The notes below the pieces were generated by a model that was given only the letters and a program-made list of their open reading frames with translations, made no database searches and was not told the origin of the DNA. A DNA stretch of 64,000 bases from a virus. Lineage: Duplodnaviria > Heunggongvirae > Uroviricota > Caudoviricetes. Position 1 is the stretch's first letter. Each line of letters opens with the position of its first letter. The DNA is taken from positions 22,261-86,260 of IMG/VR virus record IMGVR_UViG_3300035660_000003. The stretch is one strand, 5' to 3'. Positions 6,799 to 58,079 of the stretch are shown piece after piece. The translations under genes were made by a program, and so were the position numbers.

Positions 6799-7230
6799 GT
6801 GATAATAATGAAGCACGATGAAATACTTGAAGAAGTATTAGCAGAATTCAAAAGTAGAGGATATAAAGTAATTCATCTTAATCGTAAACCCATTCCAGAT
6901 GCCATCGCCATTAAAAATAATAAAACCGCCATGATTGAAGTTACTGGTTCTGATTTAAAGACAAAAATTTATTCTAAAAAATTAAAATACAAACAATATG
7001 GATTTGAAACAGATGATTTGGTTTTGATTGGAAAGGGTGTGCCAAACCAATATAAAATTCCTGCCGAAGCATATTATTATGCCTTGGAACTTCGCAAAAA
7101 GGGATGGACGTATTCAACTATTTCCGAAGAACTTGAAAAGAGATTTAAATGTAAGATTTCTACTGCTTCCATATGTCTTTGGGTCAAAGGAACTAATAAA
7201 CCATTATCAATTCGTAATATTGAAGGGTAA
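6799..7230 (+). CDS. 143-aa protein, weak PD-(D/E)xK / Hjc-like nuclease signature
   Basis: motif PDAIAIK...IEVTG; tandem TATA-like boxes 15-35 nt upstream. Confidence 0.5.
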   Translation: MIIMKHDEILEEVLAEFKSRGYKVIHLNRKPIPDAIAIKNNKTAMIEVTGSDLKTKIYSKKLKYKQYGFETDDLVLIGKGVPNQYKIPAEAYYYALELRKKGWTYSTISEELEKRFKCKISTASICLWVKGTNKPLSIRNIEG

Positions 7231-7374
7231 TTATGTATAAACTGGTATAAATCATTAAAAAATTTAAAAATCTTGTATTAATCCCATTCTTTCCATATAA
7301 TAAAGGCATATCGCCGTTAGCGAACAGATATACAGGGCTTGTATATGATTGTCAATAAACTAGATTCGAAACAA

Positions 7375-7790
7375 TGATAAATGGTCAAGCGGGGCGAATT
7401 GCTTCGCCTGTGTGAAGTTTACCCATCTAGTTTCACCTAGCCCTCAAGTCCCATGCTAAGTTACTTACATGGGTCTTTCACTTAGCTCCCATCTTGAGGG
7501 TTTACCGCCTGATAGTGCCATTGACTGGCAGGGTGGACTTCCCTTTTACCTTCCCGTTTTAAGTCCAAGACGGCGACCAGTCGATGACTAATATTTTACC
7601 AACGTCCTTAACCGAGTCAATGCGTCCATTGCACGGGGAACGCTGGCGAATACGACAGCAAACAAGGATAACCTCTGCTATCTCAAGCATCCAACGGGTA
7701 ATGACTTCGCCGTTTCATATCTTCGCCCTAAACCAAACGGCTTAGGAGTTCACCTTCGAGATGTCCCGTTTGCAAACTAAATAAATAGGG
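7375..7790. ncRNA. GC-rich ORF-free island, candidate structured RNA (identity unknown)
   Basis: ~50% GC against ~33% background; nested helices e.g. CCCTCAAG..CCCATG..CATGGG..CTTGAGGG; sits between convergent gene blocks. Confidence 0.3.
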
Positions 7791-7819
7791 AAAGTTATAT
7801 TTAAGCGTTTCGGTTCAAT

Positions 7820-8269
7820 TTAACTTATTGTTTCTTTAGTCCACAAGTCAACTTGTTCTGATGCTTGGTCATTTCTTTTTTCATAGTCTTCTTTTGAAAT
7901 CCTTGTCCTAGAATCTTCGTCATCAAGCCATCTTCGTGACAATTCAACTGGCGGTTCATATTCTCGATTGCCTAAAATGACCTCTGCACGTCTATTTAAT
8001 TCATAAATGCCTTCTATACATTTTTTGCACAATCGAACAGATACCCAATATATAAACTTATCATACCATGTTCCATCAAGGAATATACCGACATCCCATT
8101 GTTTTTCTATCATTTCTTGACATTTGTTGCACGGGATAAACCATGTTTTTATTATTCTAAGATAGAATTGCCAAGTAAATTCTTGCTTGATTTTAAAGTA
8201 TTGTTGTTCCTCTAGTCCCTTCTTTTCATTATAGACCATAAAACATTCAAACTTAAATCTTTCTTTCAT
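7820..8269 (-). CDS. hypothetical Cys-containing protein
   Basis: 149 aa, CNKC...CKKC; promoter-like element 8316-8335 upstream. Confidence 0.6.
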   Translation of the reverse strand: MKERFKFECFMVYNEKKGLEEQQYFKIKQEFTWQFYLRIIKTWFIPCNKCQEMIEKQWDVGIFLDGTWYDKFIYWVSVRLCKKCIEGIYELNRRAEVILGNREYEPPVELSRRWLDDEDSRTRISKEDYEKRNDQASEQVDLWTKETIS

Positions 8270-8315
8270 TCAATCACCTCTTCATTCTTTCGTTCATACT
8301 GGATATGCTCAGAGG

Positions 8316-8335
8316 CATATATAAGGCTTACGGTC
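8316..8335 (-). promoter_or_regulatory. BRE/TATA promoter (catatataaggcttacggtc)
   Basis: near-identical to 60177 element; ~55 nt upstream of gene start 8269. Confidence 0.5.
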
Positions 8336-8392
8336 TCACAATCGAGTCATATCAGTTCACAAACGTGAACCATGCCCAAAAACACGAAAGAT

Positions 8393-8408
8393 TAATCAAT
8401 TGATTAAG
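8393..8408. repeat. 16-bp palindrome TTAATCAATTGATTAA
   Basis: exact match. Confidence 0.95.
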
Positions 8409-9327
8409 TTCTTCATACTTAGCACAGGACTTAGTATGGAGTCATACTCAAGCATATTGACCATGTTTCTAGGCATATCTGGTATGCTCGGATATGCTTG
8501 GATTATGTCTGGATATATCTAGTCATCGGCGAATTCGAAGAAGCCCCCGAAATGGCATACTCGATATGCCTGCGTGCATATGAAGTATGCTTCAATATAT
8601 CTGCAAGCATATCAATTCCGAACACGAATTAAACTGAGCAGATTTACCAATGAATGAAACTCCACGAAGGAACAAGTGAAACCTTTCACCAAAAACCGCA
8701 CCGAAATGTGCCCGCATTCAACCAACGAGTTCCAACCCAGACTAATTTTTCGAGCATATGCCCATTCAAATGACCAGTCAACGAGTCACCATCCCAGACA
8801 AGCCCGTGTCTAACCTGTCACTTTACAAACCATCGCAAATTCATTAACTAGACTAATTCATTAAGCTAGACTAGGATTCCCAAACCACAAATCATATGGT
8901 TAAAGGGGCAAATTAGGGCTATTTTTAGGCTTAGAATTGAGAATGGCGGGGGAGTTCGGGTTGGTTGGTTGAATTGTGCTTGTATTCAAGCTCAATACTA
9001 TTATAACCCCTACCCTTAACCTTAATCACGAATCCGCACCTATTCCGCACCTATTTATCATTAACATCCATATATAACAAGTTAAACAAGCTAACATGCC
9101 AGTTTTTAGGGTTAATTAGCTCTATAAGGTGTAGTTTGTGCCTTATTGGTTCGTGGTTAATGGTGTTGGTTGATTCGTTCGTTGCCTCAATTGAAAATAG
9201 GCAAATTATGAGGTTGTTTTCGGATTTCCGCACCGAAATAGGTTCGCTTTTCTAATCGCTTGATTTTGGTGGCTTAGAATTATAAGTTGAATTTTTGGTT
9301 GGTTTCAAGTCATGGTTCACGGTTTGA

Positions 9328-9343
9328 TTAATCAATTGATTAA
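9328..9343. repeat. 16-bp palindrome TTAATCAATTGATTAA
   Basis: exact match. Confidence 0.95.
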
Positions 9344-9399
9344 GTTTTTTGAGAAACCTAAAAATCGGCGGATTTAAGAAATGGTTCAAAAATTGGGAT

Positions 9400-9413
9400 A
9401 AGTTTTAAATATT
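9400..9413 (+). promoter_or_regulatory. TATA box aagttttaaatatt
   Basis: upstream of HNH gene 9444. Confidence 0.45.
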
Positions 9414-9443
9414 AGAACCGCATATTAGGTATTTGGTGTAATC

Positions 9444-9941
9444 ATGCCATTTAAAGATAAGAAATACGAAAAGAGCTATAAACACGGTTACTATTTGAAA
9501 AATAAGGCTAAAATCTTGCCTAACGTAAAAGATTATTACCGTAAAAATAAAACTCAAATTCTCATAAAAACAAAACAATATCGGTTAAAAAGTATGGATA
9601 AAATTAAGGCTTATTCTCAGAAAATCAAACTTAAAGCCTTACAAATTGTAAGCTATTCAGAAAAACCATTATGCGTTAATTGTGGTTGTGCAGATTTAAG
9701 AATCTTAGAAATTAATCACGTAAACCTTAACGGTTCTAAGGAATTAAAAACCTCTAAAAATGGCTTTAAATATAAAGGTAGGTCTTCCAGAAGCCTCTTT
9801 TTTGAAATAATCAATAAAAATCGCCCCGTTTCCGATTTAGAGGTCACTTGTAAGGTTTGCAACACAAAACATTATGTTGAAAAGAAATTTGGATTAAAAT
9901 TTAAGGTTGAATTTTTGCCAGAAAAAGAAAAAGGGGTTTAG
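9444..9941 (+). CDS. HNH (His-Me finger) endonuclease-like, K/Y-rich N-terminal repeats
   Basis: CVNCGC...EINHVN...CKVCNTKH; TATA-like box 9400-9413. Confidence 0.6.
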   Translation: MPFKDKKYEKSYKHGYYLKNKAKILPNVKDYYRKNKTQILIKTKQYRLKSMDKIKAYSQKIKLKALQIVSYSEKPLCVNCGCADLRILEINHVNLNGSKELKTSKNGFKYKGRSSRSLFFEIINKNRPVSDLEVTCKVCNTKHYVEKKFGLKFKVEFLPEKEKGV

Positions 9942-25635: not shown

Positions 25636-25652
25636 CGCCTCTTATAAGGGTT
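25636..25652 (-). promoter_or_regulatory. BRE/TATA promoter (cgcctcttataagggtt)
   Basis: same 17-mer as 32461; upstream of 25632 start. Confidence 0.5.
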
Positions 25653-26637
25653 TCTGATTTTTAGGTTCACTTGTTTCTTTCGGTATTAGTTTCACAAAAC
25701 CATCTTTGGTTATTTCGTATCCGAGATAATGTGCATTGAATCTACAAAGTCTGCACTTTAGGATTCGGAAGAAATTCAGTATTGCACCTTGTTTTGCAGA
25801 AGGAACGTCCATCTTGATTGTGCCATCCCATGAAGAGATTTTCTTGTAATCCAGAACGAAAACCGCATCGACAATATGCGAAATCGAAATTCCGCCAGCC
25901 ATTGCAAGAGTATCGCTTTCCTCTATGGCTCTTTGGTTTACTAGAATTGAAGTTATTCCGTGAATCTGGTTGTATCGCATTAATTCAAGAACACGATATT
26001 TGATTTGACCTCGCACATCTTCTAAGAGCGTCATTGAATCAACAAGTAACAAGTCTATTCCTTCGCCTTCAGCTAGACTTCTGTATGTTGAAACGAAGGC
26101 ATTCCACTCTCTCAATTCTGCAAACATCACGGTATCGATTACTGAGAGATTTTTGCTGATGTTTTCCCAATTTAGACCTAGAATCTTTGCTCTTTCTCGG
26201 AATCTTGATTCTAAATCGAATCGTGGCGTTTCTGTTTTCCACGCCTCTTCACTTGTCACAAAGCAAACTTTCTTCCCACTATCAGCTACTCGGAGAGCAA
26301 TTTCTTCTATCAAGAGGCTTTTTCCCGAATTTGGCAAACCTGTTAAAATGCTATTTGAGCCGAAAGGAATTCCTTCTATTGGCTTATCGTTCGAATCGAG
26401 AAACATCATATCGAGAAAACTGAAAGTTTTGAACGGTGATAATTCTTTCTTGTTTTCTTCGCCCACAGTTGGCTTAACAACTTTCTGGCTTTTTGCTTGC
26501 TCCATTTTTTGAGCGAACGGAGCATTAACACTAGCCCATTCATTTTGTGTAGCATTAGCCAAAACAAGTTTAACTGCCTCAGCTATTGCTTTAGCGGTTT
26601 CTTGAACGCTTTTTTCCTTATCTTTTTCTTCGGACAT
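25642..26637 (-). CDS. RecA-superfamily ATPase (KaiC/RadA-like)
   Basis: Walker A GLPNSGKSLL, Walker B IDLLLVDSMT. Confidence 0.7.
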   Translation of the reverse strand: MSEEKDKEKSVQETAKAIAEAVKLVLANATQNEWASVNAPFAQKMEQAKSQKVVKPTVGEENKKELSPFKTFSFLDMMFLDSNDKPIEGIPFGSNSILTGLPNSGKSLLIEEIALRVADSGKKVCFVTSEEAWKTETPRFDLESRFRERAKILGLNWENISKNLSVIDTVMFAELREWNAFVSTYRSLAEGEGIDLLLVDSMTLLEDVRGQIKYRVLELMRYNQIHGITSILVNQRAIEESDTLAMAGGISISHIVDAVFVLDYKKISSWDGTIKMDVPSAKQGAILNFFRILKCRLCRFNAHYLGYEITKDGFVKLIPKETSEPKNQKPL

Positions 26638-46810: not shown

Positions 46811-47358
46811 ACGTTTTTTTCCCAAAATAAATCTTGAATGCCATCTTTTTTCCATTTTAAATATGCTCTAAAAATTTCATTGATTGTTATTGGAAATCCA
46901 CGCCAAACGTCAACTCCAACATTACAAATATCCCATGCAAGTTTTTCAAAATGCATAGTTCGAAATTTCCAATGTTGATGAATATGCCCCACTAAACAGA
47001 GATAGTAACCATAACAACTTTCTTCTGGTTTATGAATCAAGAGAAGTTCTTTTCCACCTAAGTGAATTCTTATATCCCCAATGCAGGTCTTTATGCCATT
47101 ATTAGAGTCGTGATTTCCCCTCAGGAAAATAATATTTCCATTCAATTGTTGTCTATAATATTCCGCATCTTTCTGTTTCACTTGTTTAAAACAAAAGTCT
47201 CCTAAGTGAAAAACAATATCCTCTGGTTTAATTCTTGAATTCCAATTCTGTATCAAGAAATAGTCGTGTTCGCCAATACTCTTGAATGGTCGATTACAAT
47301 ATTTTATAATATTCTCATGCGAAAAGTGTGTGTCAGCCGTAAACCAATATTGAGTCAT
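46807..47358 (-). CDS. calcineurin-like metallophosphoesterase
   Basis: ADTHF, HLGDF, GNHDS, GHIH. Confidence 0.75.
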   Translation of the reverse strand: MTQYWFTADTHFSHENIIKYCNRPFKSIGEHDYFLIQNWNSRIKPEDIVFHLGDFCFKQVKQKDAEYYRQQLNGNIIFLRGNHDSNNGIKTCIGDIRIHLGGKELLLIHKPEESCYGYYLCLVGHIHQHWKFRTMHFEKLAWDICNVGVDVWRGFPITINEIFRAYLKWKKDGIQDLFWEKNV

Positions 47359-48154
47359 TAGTTTTCCCTCTAAATTTTATTGCGAAAATATGCTTCGGCT
47401 CTTTCTTGACCCAACGACGGTCCCACCATCTTTTTCCACGTCTCGTAGTCCCGAAGCCTTTTGTCATTCCTATATATTTCCAATTGTCAGCATAATAAAT
47501 ACTACCCATGCGGGGGGGTTCAACAAAAGTGATTAATCCCCGAAGTTTGCCACCATATTTCTCTTCATAGTCTCTTTGGATTGCGATTCGAAATGATTTC
47601 AATGTCATAGTCGCTAAATTCTTGTCTGGCACAACAATTCGAAAGACCTCATTATTCATGATTTCAAGAAGTTTATCCGACCTATTTTCCTTGTTTATAT
47701 TAAAGTAATTATCAATTGGTTTTACGGAATATGGTGCAGAGTTTCCGCCGATGATTCCTACGATTTTGCCCTTCCAGATGACTATATAATTGATTGACCG
47801 TCCGACTATGCCTTTGCTGTTTGGATAATGAGTGAGATAAAGCGTGGCGAAGATTTTGTTGCCTTTTGGCACTTGAAGGAGACAGGGATATTTATAGGAT
47901 TGCGGAATCATATAGGTTTGAGCTAGGGCTGATTTTAACTCGTCCTCGGTTTTGAATGCAACCATGCCTGAGTTTCCTATTCCACTTTGCTCGGCGATTT
48001 CATCTGGATTCTTGCCTAACCGTTTAATGAAGCATTCCTTGCAGTAGTATTTTCCCCAGACACCATACTTGCCTTTCGCACCGCATTCACAAGTTTTAGT
48101 TCGTCTGGCAATAGAGCCGAAATGTTTTCCCTTCTGAGCATATTCATCAGTCAT
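47333..48154 (-). CDS. hypothetical protein with N-terminal CxxC
   Basis: 273-aa ORF. Confidence 0.6.
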   Translation of the reverse strand: MTDEYAQKGKHFGSIARRTKTCECGAKGKYGVWGKYYCKECFIKRLGKNPDEIAEQSGIGNSGMVAFKTEDELKSALAQTYMIPQSYKYPCLLQVPKGNKIFATLYLTHYPNSKGIVGRSINYIVIWKGKIVGIIGGNSAPYSVKPIDNYFNINKENRSDKLLEIMNNEVFRIVVPDKNLATMTLKSFRIAIQRDYEEKYGGKLRGLITFVEPPRMGSIYYADNWKYIGMTKGFGTTRRGKRWWDRRWVKKEPKHIFAIKFRGKTNDSILVYG

Positions 48155-56891: not shown

Positions 56892-57202
56892 GACGGTTCA
56901 CTTTTCGTCTTTTGTGGAATTAAGCATCTATTGTTATCAAGTCCGAACGAACTAATAAAATGAGCAATTCTGGCGGATTTGTAGTTTTTAAAAGTGATTT
57001 GCCTTCTCCAATTAACACCCCAACGATTCAAAATTCTTATGATTGTCAATTCAGTTAGTTCGTGCATCCAAAATCCACAGTTTTCCATATAATAATTCGC
57101 AACAAAAACTTTATTTTGTAAAAATGAAATTCCAGAGTCTAATGGCTTTTTTGTCCTTTCATATTTGAAAAATCTGGCATCATAATTATGTCTTATTCGC
57201 AT
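56885..57202 (-). CDS. hypothetical protein
   Basis: 105-aa ORF. Confidence 0.5.
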   Translation of the reverse strand: MRIRHNYDARFFKYERTKKPLDSGISFLQNKVFVANYYMENCGFWMHELTELTIIRILNRWGVNWRRQITFKNYKSARIAHFISSFGLDNNRCLIPQKTKSEPSW

Positions 57203-58079
57203 GTTTTTTCACCATCCTCTCTAAGTAATCCTGATAGTATTGATATAATTTTTTCTTGGGATTGGCAAATAGATGTTGTTTACATGCTTCACTAACATAT
57301 TGAGCGATTTTTGGCATGTCATCTTTTGACTGACCAGTTAATCCCGAATCGGCTTCAACCTTCGATATTGCCCCATAAACTTCATTGTCTGGCATAGGTG
57401 GATAAATTGCTTCGCCTCTAGCAATTTTTCTTTTCTCTGGTTCTGGAACGTCGAGTTTAACTTTTGCTTGAATGAGACCGCCATTAAACTCATCCCATTC
57501 AGCAAATCTTTCTGGCACTTTATAAGCCTTAATCACCATTCCCTCAATTTTCACAGCATCACAGTGTTCTAAGACGTGATTCTTGAATTTGAGCAGGTCT
57601 TTCATGCTTCGATGACGAGTTTCAGCGAACAGTTTCACGCAGGGGATGTTGTGGTGGTATGCGTGCTGGTGGACGTTCACATAGGGCAAAAATTTCGCCG
57701 AATTTTTATCATAGATGTCGAACACATACAGAATATTTCGCTCATAATTTTCAATTCCCGTCACAGACCTTCCTTTTCGACAGGCTTCAACATAAATTAT
57801 AAATTGCGGATTTTCCTTTAATAATTCAATAATTTTAGGATAATCTTCGCATTTTTTAACTAGAGTTTGTAAATCAATTGAAGCGGTTTCAAGATTTCTA
57901 CTGGATATTCTGATTTTTGATTTTTTATCAAGCCAGAGGGCTATACAAGAACCGTCACGTTTATATGTCCAAAAAAGTTTTTGTCCAAGTAGAATTCTGG
58001 GTGAGGGCTTCATCGAAATTAAAAGTGGTATGTGTGGGTATCGTTTAAAACCAATTTTTGCTTCAGATTTTCTTACCAT
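57186..58079 (-). CDS. ATP-dependent RNA ligase-like nucleotidyltransferase (Rnl-type)
   Basis: motif I YKRDGSCIALW, III FIIYVEAC, IV YVFDIYD, V IEGMVIKAYK. Confidence 0.55.
   Translation of the reverse strand: MVRKSEAKIGFKRYPHIPLLISMKPSPRILLGQKLFWTYKRDGSCIALWLDKKSKIRISSRNLETASIDLQTLVKKCEDYPKIIELLKENPQFIIYVEACRKGRSVTGIENYERNILYVFDIYDKNSAKFLPYVNVHQHAYHHNIPCVKLFAETRHRSMKDLLKFKNHVLEHCDAVKIEGMVIKAYKVPERFAEWDEFNGGLIQAKVKLDVPEPEKRKIARGEAIYPPMPDNEVYGAISKVEADSGLTGQSKDDMPKIAQYVSEACKQHLFANPKKKLYQYYQDYLERMVKKHANKT

What the first reader, a model, noticed from the sequence alone, without database searches (positions are those of the whole stretch)
7375..7790. GC-rich, ORF-free island exactly at the gene-polarity switch: candidate structured RNA
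This 420 nt stretch is about 50% GC in a ~33% GC background and has no ORF on either strand. It has nested complementary segments (CCCTCAAG/CTTGAGGG enclosing CCCATG/CATGGG). There are short P4-like fragments (UAAGUCC ... AACGGCUUAGG), but I cannot assign it to RNase P, SRP or intron families. It separates the plus-strand structural block from the minus-strand remainder. It might be a large ncRNA, a replication terminus or origin-associated structure, or an intron remnant.
Basis: seen in the sequence. Interest (0 to 1): 0.55.

Follow-up and report, generated by a model that had tools for sequence, protein, structure and literature searches.

The report
Structured RNA gene of archaeal virus
The GC-rich gap is a real, conserved gene for a folded non-coding RNA of about 400 bases, read from the minus strand of what looks like an uncultivated archaeal virus. 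In related viruses it heads a cluster of tRNA genes, it matches no described RNA family, and its function is unknown.

Summary
Window 7374-7773 is the GC maximum of the whole 64 kb (48.8% against a mean of 35.2%, z 3.8). It has no ORF and sits where the + and - gene blocks converge.

It is an RNA gene on the minus strand. A BRE/TATA-like promoter (7798-7813) matches the consensus found about 40 nt upstream of at least 12 ORFs in this genome, but no ORF follows it.

The transcript, about 7773 to 7376, has three parts:
- domain A (7590-7773);
- a long stem-loop, LH1 (7517-7588);
- module 3 (7382-7511), a four-way junction closed by a 7-bp stem followed by ACCA, like a tRNA acceptor end.

About ten related metagenomic contigs carry diverged copies with compensatory and G-U changes that fit only the minus strand. 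In relatives the element is followed by more RNA modules and 15-16 tRNA genes. In this window that array is deleted exactly at 7376. Some relatives keep domain A alone, so it is an autonomous unit.

Rfam, ARAGORN and GenBank phages give no match.

The closest analogues by context are GOLLD and ROOL, but it is not a member of either. Function is unknown. Maturation by tRNA-processing enzymes is inferred.

The parts
7798..7813 (-). Promoter: BRE-like CCGAAACG (7806-7813) followed by TATA-like CTTAAATA (7798-7805)
   Evidence: The same consensus, CC[GA]NAA-nn-YTTAWATA, lies about 38-46 nt upstream of at least 12 minus-strand ORF starts in the window; here no ORF follows. It is conserved in every relative. 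The distance from the first TATA base to the first base of helix P1 is 31-34 nt in W, N, V17 and V18.
7590..7773 (-). Domain A, the autonomous core of the RNA. Helix P1 pairs 7765-7773 with 7658-7667. Hairpin A spans 7716-7763 and contains the conserved CGAAGG. The conserved CGUUGR motif is at 7691-7698. Hairpin P-term pairs 7638-7646 with 7599-7607; it carries an inserted hairpin at 7612-7636 and the conserved GUUAA.
   Evidence: P1 covaries across 7 sequences with pair types AU/CG/UA, AU/GC/UA and AU/UA. P-term is 9/9 paired, and G-U in W becomes A-U in N. The insert hairpin shows an A-U to G-C swap between W and F. Domain A stands alone, with its own promoter, in L007, L009, L010, L012 and L018. 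Coordinates.
7517..7588 (-). Leader hairpin LH1. Outer stem GUCAU/AUGGC, inner stem GACUGG/CCAGUC, variable tip GGACUU/AAGUCC.
   Evidence: Six hairpins of this type in W, L001, L005, L013 and L003 keep the flanks (U)AGUCAU ... AAUGRCA(CUAU). Their inner stems differ completely in sequence yet stay paired.
7512..7516 (-). Spacer ACUAU between LH1 and module 3
   Evidence: CUAU is also the recurrent spacer immediately upstream of many tRNAs in the arrays of L001 and L016.
7382..7511 (-). Module 3, a four-way junction. Closing stem CAGGCGG/CCGCUUG followed by ACCA. Arm H1 (7493-7500 with 7441-7448) plus H2 (7480-7486 with 7455-7461), whose loop contains CCCAU. Arm H3 (7432-7436 with 7412-7416), whose loop contains AGAUGGG. 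A 6-bp hairpin with a GCAA tetraloop (7393-7408).
   Evidence: RNAalifold on W, L013 and L005 predicts this junction. H3 covaries: GUGAA/UUCAC, UGAAG/CUUCA, GAAGAGA/UCUCUUC. H1 changes only through G-U pairs. It is 93% identical between W and L005 where the neighbouring gene is 72.5%. Neither ARAGORN nor the Rfam tRNA model recognises it as a tRNA.
7376..7381 (-). UUUAUC, the last bases shared with relatives; 7376 is the deletion junction
   Evidence: Similarity of L001 and L002 to the window stops exactly at 7376. The relatives continue with a second hairpin, a tRNA-Leu-like gene and a tRNA array.
7278..7375 (-). Deletion scar: 66 nt of filler unique to the window (7310-7375), then the last ~10 codons (..AFIIWKEWD*) of a small membrane-protein gene that is intact in relatives
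   Evidence: Homology to L015, L012, L009 and L016 resumes at 7309. Sequence comparison.
7820..8269 (-). Upstream neighbour: a 149-aa CxxC...CxxC protein of unknown function. Its stop codon lies a few bases before the RNA promoter in W, F and N relatives.
   Evidence: No Pfam family. AlphaFold2 model at pLDDT 77.7 with no PDB fold match. It is a linkage marker only.

Best explanation
What it is. The island is a gene for a structured non-coding RNA, transcribed from the minus strand by the host's archaeal-type RNA polymerase. The promoter is a BRE/TATA pair at 7798-7813. The inferred start is at about 7773, the first base of helix P1.

The RNA is modular. Domain A (about 185 nt) is a P1-closed multi-branch fold plus a 9-bp terminal hairpin. 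It is followed by a long leader hairpin, LH1. Then, after an ACUAU spacer, comes module 3, a four-way junction closed by a 7-bp stem plus ACCA, which copies the acceptor end of a tRNA.

In related viruses the same transcription unit continues into further hairpin-plus-tRNA-like units and an array of 15-16 tRNA genes. In this genome a deletion of about 2.4 kb has removed everything beyond module 3.

Inferred mechanism. The tRNA-like junction and the CUAU spacers act as punctuation. Host RNase P would cut at 7511/7512. This would release domain A with LH1, whose 3' end would then lie in a base-paired stem, plus a stable tRNA-shaped RNA.

Inferred role. The released RNAs would act in trans during infection, most likely in the tRNA/translation sphere, as the tRNA array and the viral RNA ligase do. 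Possible roles are a decoy or a scaffold.

Shown: promoter, strand, conservation, helices, modularity, deletion. Inferred: transcript ends, processing, any function.
For: - Promoter: same consensus as at least 12 gene promoters in the window, no ORF downstream, constant 31-34 nt spacing to P1 in four lineages.
- Strand: G-U pairs and G-U/A-U exchanges fit only the minus strand. Minus strand folds at z -3.93 against -2.70 for plus.
- Homologues: L001, L002, L013, L005/L011, L008, L007, L009, L010, L012, L017 and L018.
- Covariation: P1 (covariation score 0.351 against 0.172 +/- 0.04 in shuffles, 0/500 reaching it; slid controls <=0.199). Also H3, the P-term insert, and the LH inner stems and tips.
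- Selection: module 3 is 93% identical where the adjacent gene is 72.5%. Domain A plus LH1 is 100% identical between W and L013 where the promoter is 85%.
- Autonomy of domain A: it stands alone with its promoter in N-type loci, followed there by a T-run, and in L018.
- tRNA-island context: 16 tRNAs downstream in L001 and 15 in L016. Recurrent CUAU spacers.
- Viral RNA ligase gene at 57186-58079.
- GC maximum of the window coincides with the predicted transcript.
Against: - No expression data, so the transcript ends and the RNase P cut are inferred.
- Only about six independent sequence lineages exist. The alignments used for covariation were trimmed by hand with the structure in mind, so the statistics lean towards the model.
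- The interior of domain A differs a lot between lineages, and I could not derive one consensus fold for it. CGUUGR can pair with two different partners.
- Module 3 has a GNRA tetraloop where a tRNA has its T-loop. It scores below E=10 against the tRNA model, so its recognition by RNase P is uncertain.
- In this window the downstream array is gone, so this copy could be a decaying remnant. It is nevertheless identical to the L001 and L002 copies.
- The archaeal host is inferred from promoters and gene content, not from a host match.
Confidence: 0.6

Rival explanations
1. A self-assembling 'ornate' RNA of the GOLLD/ROOL type. The RNA multimerises through loop-loop contacts into an RNA-only particle, and that particle is its function. 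Candidate contacts are one CCCAU loop against three AUGGG sites, and a GNRA tetraloop.
For: Same niche: a virus genome next to a tRNA island, with tRNA-like units embedded, as reported for GOLLD and ROOL (PMC12286853). Within module 3, one CCCAU loop faces three AUGGG sites, and a conserved GCAA tetraloop has no obvious internal receptor.
Against: No sequence or covariance-model similarity to GOLLD or ROOL at E<=10. At about 400 nt, or 185 nt for the autonomous core, it is smaller. Its modules occur in different combinations, which fits poorly with a fixed cage protomer. Nothing here tests oligomerisation.
Confidence: 0.12
2. No function of its own. It is just a structured 5' leader plus decayed tRNA-gene debris of the tRNA operon, conserved only because the relatives are close.
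For: Module 3 and the Leu-like unit share CAGGCG...GC..G-ACCA ends, and the island clearly evolves by recombination between tRNA-like units (L003 chimeras; the deletion in the window). Few lineages are known.
Against: Domain A is kept with its own promoter where no tRNA follows on that strand (N type, L018). P1 keeps pairing through three different Watson-Crick pair types. Module 3 is far better conserved than the neighbouring protein gene. H3 covaries around an invariant loop.
Confidence: 0.18
3. A DNA-level element: a replication origin or terminus, or another protein-binding DNA structure at the strand switch.
For: It lies exactly at the convergence of the two gene blocks and at the cumulative GC-skew maximum.
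Against: The skew change is what the flip in coding strand alone would give. There are no iterons, ORB-like repeats or AT-rich stretch in 7376-7790; those features are instead in 8295-8620. G-U-mediated conservation and hairpins of variable length but preserved pairing are RNA signatures. A canonical promoter points into it.
Confidence: 0.03
4. A missed protein-coding gene, or a member of a known RNA family too diverged to detect (RNase P, SRP, tmRNA, intron).
For: The + frame 0 has only TAA stops. Superficial GGAAGUCC-like strings are present.
Against: No ORF under codes that read through TGA or TAG. Indels between relatives are not multiples of three. No Rfam match at E<=10 and no ARAGORN hit. 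The P4-like strings sit in non-conserved hairpin tips.
Confidence: 0.03

Closest known systems
GOLLD RNA (Rfam RF01998) and ROOL RNA (RF03087), large phage RNAs
   Same: Virus-encoded, highly structured, GC-rich relative to the genome, with no associated protein known. They sit next to tRNA islands, and tRNA units are sometimes embedded in them (PMC12286853). Here, relatives have 15-16 tRNAs directly downstream and tRNA-like units inside.
   Different: No covariance-model match at E<=10. The host looks archaeal, not bacterial. The RNA is smaller and modular, and the modules shuffle between relatives. Oligomerisation is untested.
tRNA-like processing signals: mascRNA at the 3' end of MALAT1, and tRNA-linked small RNAs of murine gammaherpesvirus 68 (from my own knowledge)
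   Same: A tRNA-shaped module directly downstream of a non-coding RNA could recruit RNase P to create the upstream RNA's 3' end. Here that is a 7-bp acceptor-like stem, a coaxial 6-bp hairpin and ACCA, preceded by the array's CUAU spacer.
   Different: Those are eukaryotic or eukaryotic-virus systems, and their tRNA-like parts keep T- and D-loop features. Module 3 has a GNRA loop and oversized arms, and its cleavage is not shown.
Canonical tRNA genes of viral tRNA arrays
   Same: Module 3 has a 7-bp closing stem, a four-way junction and a 3' ACCA. It has the same flanking spacer as array tRNAs and sequence echoes of the neighbouring tRNA-Leu-like gene.
   Different: It has no D-loop, anticodon loop or T-loop and is 130 nt long. 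ARAGORN and the Rfam tRNA model reject it, whereas the 141-nt Leu-like unit of relatives passes (44 bits).
Archaeal RNase P RNA
   Same: Similar size and GC-rich structure, a link to tRNA, and strings resembling GGAAGUCC and GGCUUAGG.
   Different: No Rfam match. The strings are on opposite strands and lie in variable tips. There is no conserved P4 pair of strands in any relative.

Membership tests
RNase P RNA (bacterial A/B, archaeal, nuclear) | Covariance-model match, including the conserved P4 strands (CR-I GGAAAGUCC / CR-V ..GGCUUA) in the correct order on one strand | tested here: not met
   No match at gathering score or at E<=10 on either strand. The look-alike strings are complements of two variable hairpin tips (7561-7566, 7739-7746) that are not conserved in L005, L007 or L009.
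GOLLD RNA | Match to the conserved 3' domain (Rfam RF01998) | tested here: not met
   No hit at E<=10 in 7100-8000, nor in L001, L013, L005 or L003 at E<=1.
GOLLD / ROOL RNA | Encoded by a virus or provirus next to a tRNA island | tested here: met
   L001 has 16 tRNAs within 600 nt downstream; L016, L003 and L018 also carry tRNAs. The window's own array is deleted.
GOLLD / ROOL RNA | Homo-oligomeric RNA-only nanocage | not testable with these tools
   Needs native gel or cryo-EM. Only candidate loop-loop complementarity (CCCAU/AUGGG) was seen.
ROOL RNA | Match to Rfam RF03087 | tested here: not met
   no hit.
tRNA (module 3) | Cloverleaf with D-loop, 7-nt anticodon loop and T-loop; detection by ARAGORN or Rfam RF00005 | tested here: not met
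   ARAGORN finds 0 genes in the window and there is no RF00005 hit at E<=10. The 'T' position holds a GCAA tetraloop and the 'anticodon' loop is 12-15 nt.
tRNA (module 3) | 7-bp acceptor stem closing a four-way junction, followed by NCCA | tested here: met
   CAGGCGG/CCGCUUG plus ACCA, invariant in W, L013 and L005.
tmRNA | tRNA-like domain plus tag reading frame; ARAGORN or Rfam detection | tested here: not met
SRP RNA / group I and II introns / other Rfam families | Covariance-model match | tested here: not met
   0 matches among 4227 families at E<=10.
Archaeal RNA polymerase promoter | BRE plus TATA box about 25-30 nt upstream of the transcript start, recurring before genes of the same genome | tested here: met
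   CCGAAACG-CTTAAATA at 7798-7813. The same motif lies 38-46 nt upstream of at least 12 ORF starts. It lies 31-34 nt upstream of P1 in four lineages. The start site itself is not mapped.
Replication origin | Clustered repeats or iterons and an AT-rich unwinding region | tested here: not met
   No repeat family falls in 7376-7790, and the island is the GC maximum. Repeats cluster instead at 8295-8620.

The most novel reading that the evidence does not exclude
Uncultivated archaeal tailed viruses carry a modular 'RNA island'. It holds several structured RNAs with no match to any described family: domain A, the leader hairpins, module 3, the T module, RNA-2 and RNA-3. These are interleaved with tRNA-like units and tRNAs, and would be matured by tRNA punctuation. 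Domain A and module 3 would then be an archaeal-virus counterpart of GOLLD/ROOL: trans-acting RNAs that assemble into higher-order particles, or mimic tRNA, to protect or redirect the translation/tRNA machinery during infection.
Probability: 0.2. Interest if true: 0.8.

Novelty: new variant of a known kind. Interest (0 to 1): 0.6.

Why it matters
Large structured RNAs next to viral tRNA islands (GOLLD, ROOL) are among the most striking RNAs of unknown function. So far they are described from bacteria and their phages.

This family is unrelated in sequence but occupies the same niche in what appear to be archaeal viruses. That would suggest the link between tRNA islands and ornate RNAs is a general, convergently evolved feature of virus biology.

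It also gives small, separable modules for experiments: a 185-nt autonomous core and a 130-nt tRNA-shaped junction. These can be used for structure work and for testing whether tRNA-processing enzymes mature viral non-coding RNAs.

On the practical side, it flags a set of RNA genes that gene callers and Rfam miss in these genomes.

Tried and rejected
- Rfam at gathering score on the whole window, and at E<=10 on 7100-8000 and 8200-9500: nothing relevant.
- ARAGORN on the window: no tRNA or tmRNA.
- GenBank phages, blastn with the island and tblastn with TopoVI-A-like and PolB proteins: no relatives, or only remote PolB hits.
- IMG/VR with three flanking proteins and two 19-20-mers of the RNA: nothing.
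- GTDB genomes with a motif pattern: one chance hit inside a Lachnospiraceae coding region, discarded.
- DGR, retron or intron ideas: no repeat of the island elsewhere in the window and no reverse transcriptase nearby.
- The 149-aa neighbour: no Pfam family; AlphaFold2 model with no PDB fold match.
- MAFFT alignment of whole domain A across lineages was unusable. I could not settle the fold of the interior of domain A.
- I first took the L003 element for a diverged domain A. L017 shows domain A and this 'T module' in tandem, so they are different modules.
- I considered that an encoded CCA distinguishes the tRNA-like modules. This is rejected, because several ordinary array tRNAs also end in CCA.
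- The GUUAA loop contains UUAAG, which is complementary to the anticodon loop of the neighbouring tRNA-Leu(UAA)-like unit. I noted a possible T-box-like codon display, but a 5-nt match cannot be told from chance.
- I first read the split tRNA-Arg of L003 as an archaeal intron. Its flanks do not rebuild an anticodon stem, so I make no intron claim.

Full report
**1. The observation**

The stretch is real and unusual.
- The 400-nt window with the highest GC in all 64 kb is 7374-7773 (48.75% against a mean of 35.2%, sd 3.5, z 3.8).
- Between 7231 and 7819 no ORF exceeds 53 aa on either strand.
- Reading through TGA or TAG does not open a long frame. Only + frame 0 opens, and only if TAA were read through.
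- ORFs on the + strand end at 7230, and from 7820 onward almost everything is on the - strand. The island therefore sits at a convergence of two gene blocks, where cumulative GC skew peaks.

**2. Strand and promoter**

The minus strand of 7376-7773 folds at -139.3 kcal/mol (z -3.93, 0 of 100 shuffles as good). The plus strand gives -117.7 (z -2.70).

Just downstream of the stop codon of the 149-aa gene (7820-8269) lies CCGAAACG-CTTAAATA (7813-7798, minus strand). A scan of the window for YTTAWATA shows the same composite motif, CC[GA]NAA-nn-YTTAWATA, about 38-46 nt upstream of at least 12 minus-strand ORF starts.

This is the form of an archaeal BRE/TATA promoter; that reading rests on my own knowledge of archaeal promoters. 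It agrees with the gene content: a TopoVI-A/Spo11-like protein, a KaiC/RadA-like ATPase and a family-B polymerase in a relative. At 7798-7813 the motif is followed by no ORF.

In four lineages the first base of helix P1 lies 31-34 nt after the first TATA base. That is where an archaeal transcript would start. The start site itself is inferred, not mapped.

**3. Relatives**

The lineage is rare.
- Nothing was found in GenBank phages or in IMG/VR.
- The upstream 149-aa protein has only 6 clusters of homologues among 5.8 billion proteins, or 19 with a profile search.
- Looking up the contigs that encode these proteins, plus one motif scan of JGI metagenomes, gave these loci: L001, L002 and L013 (W type); L005/L011 and L008 (F type); L007, L009, L010 and L012 (N type); L018 (V18); L017 (V17); and L003/L004 (T).

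Similarity of L001 and L002 to the window is 98.6-99.6% and stops exactly at 7376.

Beyond that point L001 continues with:
- a second hairpin;
- a 141-nt tRNA-Leu(UAA)-like gene, which scores 44 bits against the Rfam tRNA model;
- further ORF-free units;
- 16 tRNA genes on the same strand.

L016 shows the same array with 15 tRNAs. The window has no tRNA and none of the other modules.

Homology to the relatives resumes at 7309, within the last codons of a 56-72-aa membrane-protein gene. Positions 7310-7375 are unique filler. The left edge of the island is therefore a deletion scar. About 2.4 kb of RNA genes have been lost here.

**4. Anatomy** (minus strand; coordinates)

- Domain A, 7773-7590:
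  - P1 pairs GCAAACGGG (7773-7765) with CCUUGUUUGC (7667-7658).
  - Hairpin A begins after the conserved CGGGAC..UYCGAAGG.
  - A conserved CGUUGR motif follows.
  - A 9-bp terminal hairpin, CCAGCGUUC/GGACGUUGG, has the conserved GUUAA. In W and F it also carries an inserted hairpin.
- LH1, 7588-7517: outer stem GUCAU/AUGGC, inner stem GACUGG/CCAGUC, variable tip.
- Spacer ACUAU, 7516-7512.
- Module 3, 7511-7382. RNAalifold on three variants gives a four-way junction made of:
  - a 7-bp closing stem, CAGGCGG/CCGCUUG, followed by ACCA;
  - a long arm, H1 plus H2;
  - arm H3 with an invariant UAGAUGGGUA loop;
  - a 6-bp hairpin capped by GCAA.

One CCCAU in the H2 loop faces three AUGGG sites, so a pseudoknot or loop-loop contact is possible but untested.

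**5. Evidence that the structure is selected**

- P1. On a hand-trimmed, gap-free alignment of seven sequences, three adjacent pairs show AU/CG/UA, AU/GC/UA and AU/UA. Overall, 76.6% of cells are paired against 62.9 +/- 3.1 in shuffles. The covariation score is 0.351 against 0.172 +/- 0.04 (0 of 500 shuffles reach it), and slid controls reach at most 0.199. I trimmed this alignment knowing the helix, so these numbers lean towards the model.
- H3. GUGAA/UUCAC, UGAAG/CUUCA and GAAGAGA/UCUCUUC surround an invariant loop.
- P-term. G-U in W becomes A-U in N. The inserted hairpin swaps A-U for G-C.
- LH-type hairpins. Six instances keep the flanks AGUCAU ... AAUGRCA-CUAU, while their inner stems differ entirely in sequence and stay fully paired.
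- Strand. G-U pairs in P1, P-term, LH1, H1 and the closing stem would be C-A on the other strand.
- Conservation. Module 3 is 93% identical between W and L005, where the adjacent protein gene is 72.5%. Domain A plus LH1 is 100% identical between W and L013, where the promoter is 85% and module 3 is 89%.

**6. Modularity**

N-type loci and L018 have the promoter and domain A only. In N-type loci a T-run and the next TATA box follow. In L018 convergent tRNA genes follow. Domain A is therefore an autonomous RNA gene, not merely a leader.

L017 has domain A, an LH2-type hairpin and a different 'T module' in tandem. L003 starts directly with that T module.

Relatives also carry two further conserved ORF-free units, each with its own TATA box (RNA-2 and RNA-3).

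The region is an island of interchangeable structured RNAs, tRNA-like units and tRNAs. It evolves by recombination and deletion.

**7. Comparison with known families**

- Rfam 15 gives no match at gathering score. At E<=10 the island (7100-8000) gives no match at all, and the neighbouring 8200-9500 gives only three chance-level hits far below gathering score. In the relatives only tRNAs match. ARAGORN finds nothing.
- RNase P is excluded. Both are replaced by other sequences in relatives.
- Module 3 shares with tRNA only the acceptor-like stem, the junction and ACCA.
- By context, the nearest known things are GOLLD and ROOL. These are phage and prophage RNAs 'often near tRNA islands', with tRNAs sometimes in the GOLLD linker (PMC12286853). 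There is no sequence or model similarity to them.
- A survey of archaeal tailed viruses reports tRNA sets and RNA ligases but does not use the word 'noncoding' at all (PMC8651126).

**8. How it most likely works**

Shown: a promoter-equipped, conserved, structured minus-strand RNA locus that heads a viral tRNA island.

Inferred:
- Transcription starts at about 7773.
- Transcription probably runs to the T-runs near 7250-7270, or ends after module 3.
- The tRNA-shaped module and the CUAU spacer recruit RNase P. This frees domain A with LH1, whose 3' end would lie in a stem, plus a compact tRNA mimic.
- The products act in trans in the tRNA/translation sphere. This fits the tRNA array and a viral RNA ligase gene (57186-58079).

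I put about 0.85 on 'a real, selected RNA gene on the minus strand'. I put about 0.3 on the processing and function part, and 0.6 on the whole statement.

**9. Rivals**

- Leader or tRNA debris with no function of its own (0.18). Weakened by the autonomy of domain A and by covariation.
- GOLLD/ROOL-like self-assembly (0.12). Not testable here.
- A DNA-level origin or terminus (0.03). There are no repeats or AT-rich stretch in the island, and the selection pattern is RNA-type. The repeat-rich stretch at 8295-8620 is a better origin candidate.
- A missed gene or a known RNA family (0.03).

**10. Limits**

- There are no expression data.
- There are few independent lineages.
- The helix alignments are hand-made.
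- The interior fold of domain A is unresolved.
- The host is inferred.
- Only 64 kb of the genome was seen, so a tRNA array elsewhere in this genome cannot be excluded.

Noticed in passing
window 8270-9443: A second ORF-free stretch (1174 nt, GC 0.39) upstream of the 149-aa gene. Positions 8295-8620 are packed with direct and inverted GCATAT/ATATGC-type repeats. It also holds two copies of the palindrome TTAATCAATTGATTAA (8392, 9328) and a tandem TCCGCACCTAT x2 (9033). It is 97-99% conserved in L001 and L002. It is a better candidate for a replication origin or regulatory hub than the GC island.
   Followed up: partly
window, e.g. 8392, 9328, 15469, 16043, 16360, 18775, 22178, 23286, 28588, 29563, 32587, 45745, 56446: The 16-bp palindrome TTAATCAATTGATTAA (and near variants) occurs more than 25 times, apparently mostly between genes. 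It is presumably the binding site of a viral or host regulator.
   Followed up: no
window, minus strand, e.g. 60717, 60184, 59090, 54995, 45684, 35328, 34582, 28515, 22943, 8325: The BRE/TATA-like consensus CC[GA]NAA-nn-YTTAWATA lies about 38-46 nt upstream of ORF starts that carry GGTGAT-type ribosome-binding sites. This points to an archaeal host.
   Followed up: yes
L005 11130-11290; L006 1225-1359; L013 (reverse complement) 1975-2115; L018 1964-2101: 'RNA-2': another conserved ORF-free unit of about 140 nt, with pairing ends GCAGAACCGAU...AUCGGUCUGC and its own TATA box. It has no Rfam match. It is absent from the window.
   Followed up: partly
L001 5355-5640; L005 11690-11900; L013 (reverse complement) 2130-2264; L018 7095-7352 (minus strand): 'RNA-3': a third conserved ORF-free unit with its own TATA box inside the tRNA island. 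It is absent from the window.
   Followed up: no
L003 8056-8236; L017 6545-6790: 'T module': a different structured unit with three CUGGAAGGCU(C/U)AAA-like repeats. It stands where domain A stands in L003, and in tandem with domain A in L017.
   Followed up: partly
L001 5213-5353 (= L005 10960-11098, L013 521-661 minus strand): A 141-nt tRNA-Leu(UAA)-like gene with an insert of about 57 nt after the anticodon loop. It scores 44 bits against the Rfam tRNA model but ARAGORN misses it. L001 5890-6003 looks like another uncalled tRNA with a UCA anticodon loop and a long extra arm.
   Followed up: partly
L003 8441-8995: Two halves of a tRNA-Arg(TCG) gene are separated by about 490 nt carrying a 146-aa CxxC...H ORF (8529-8969). 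Its N-terminus resembles window ORF 9444-9941. The flanks do not rebuild an anticodon stem, so this is more likely a gene insertion or chimera than a spliceable intron.
   Followed up: partly
window 6799-7230 (+): A 143-aa ORF with two TATA-like boxes upstream (6768, 6777). It is absent from the syntenic position in L015, L012 and L009, and there is no exact copy on record. It is an insertion specific to this genome, next to the deletion scar.
   Followed up: partly
window 57186-58079, 52592-54208, 47333-48154, 25642-26637: Genes for an RNA ligase (PF09414), a TopoVI-A/Spo11 Toprim-domain protein, a DruA-like protein and a KaiC/RadA-like ATPase. The RNA ligase fits a virus that invests in tRNA upkeep.
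   Followed up: no
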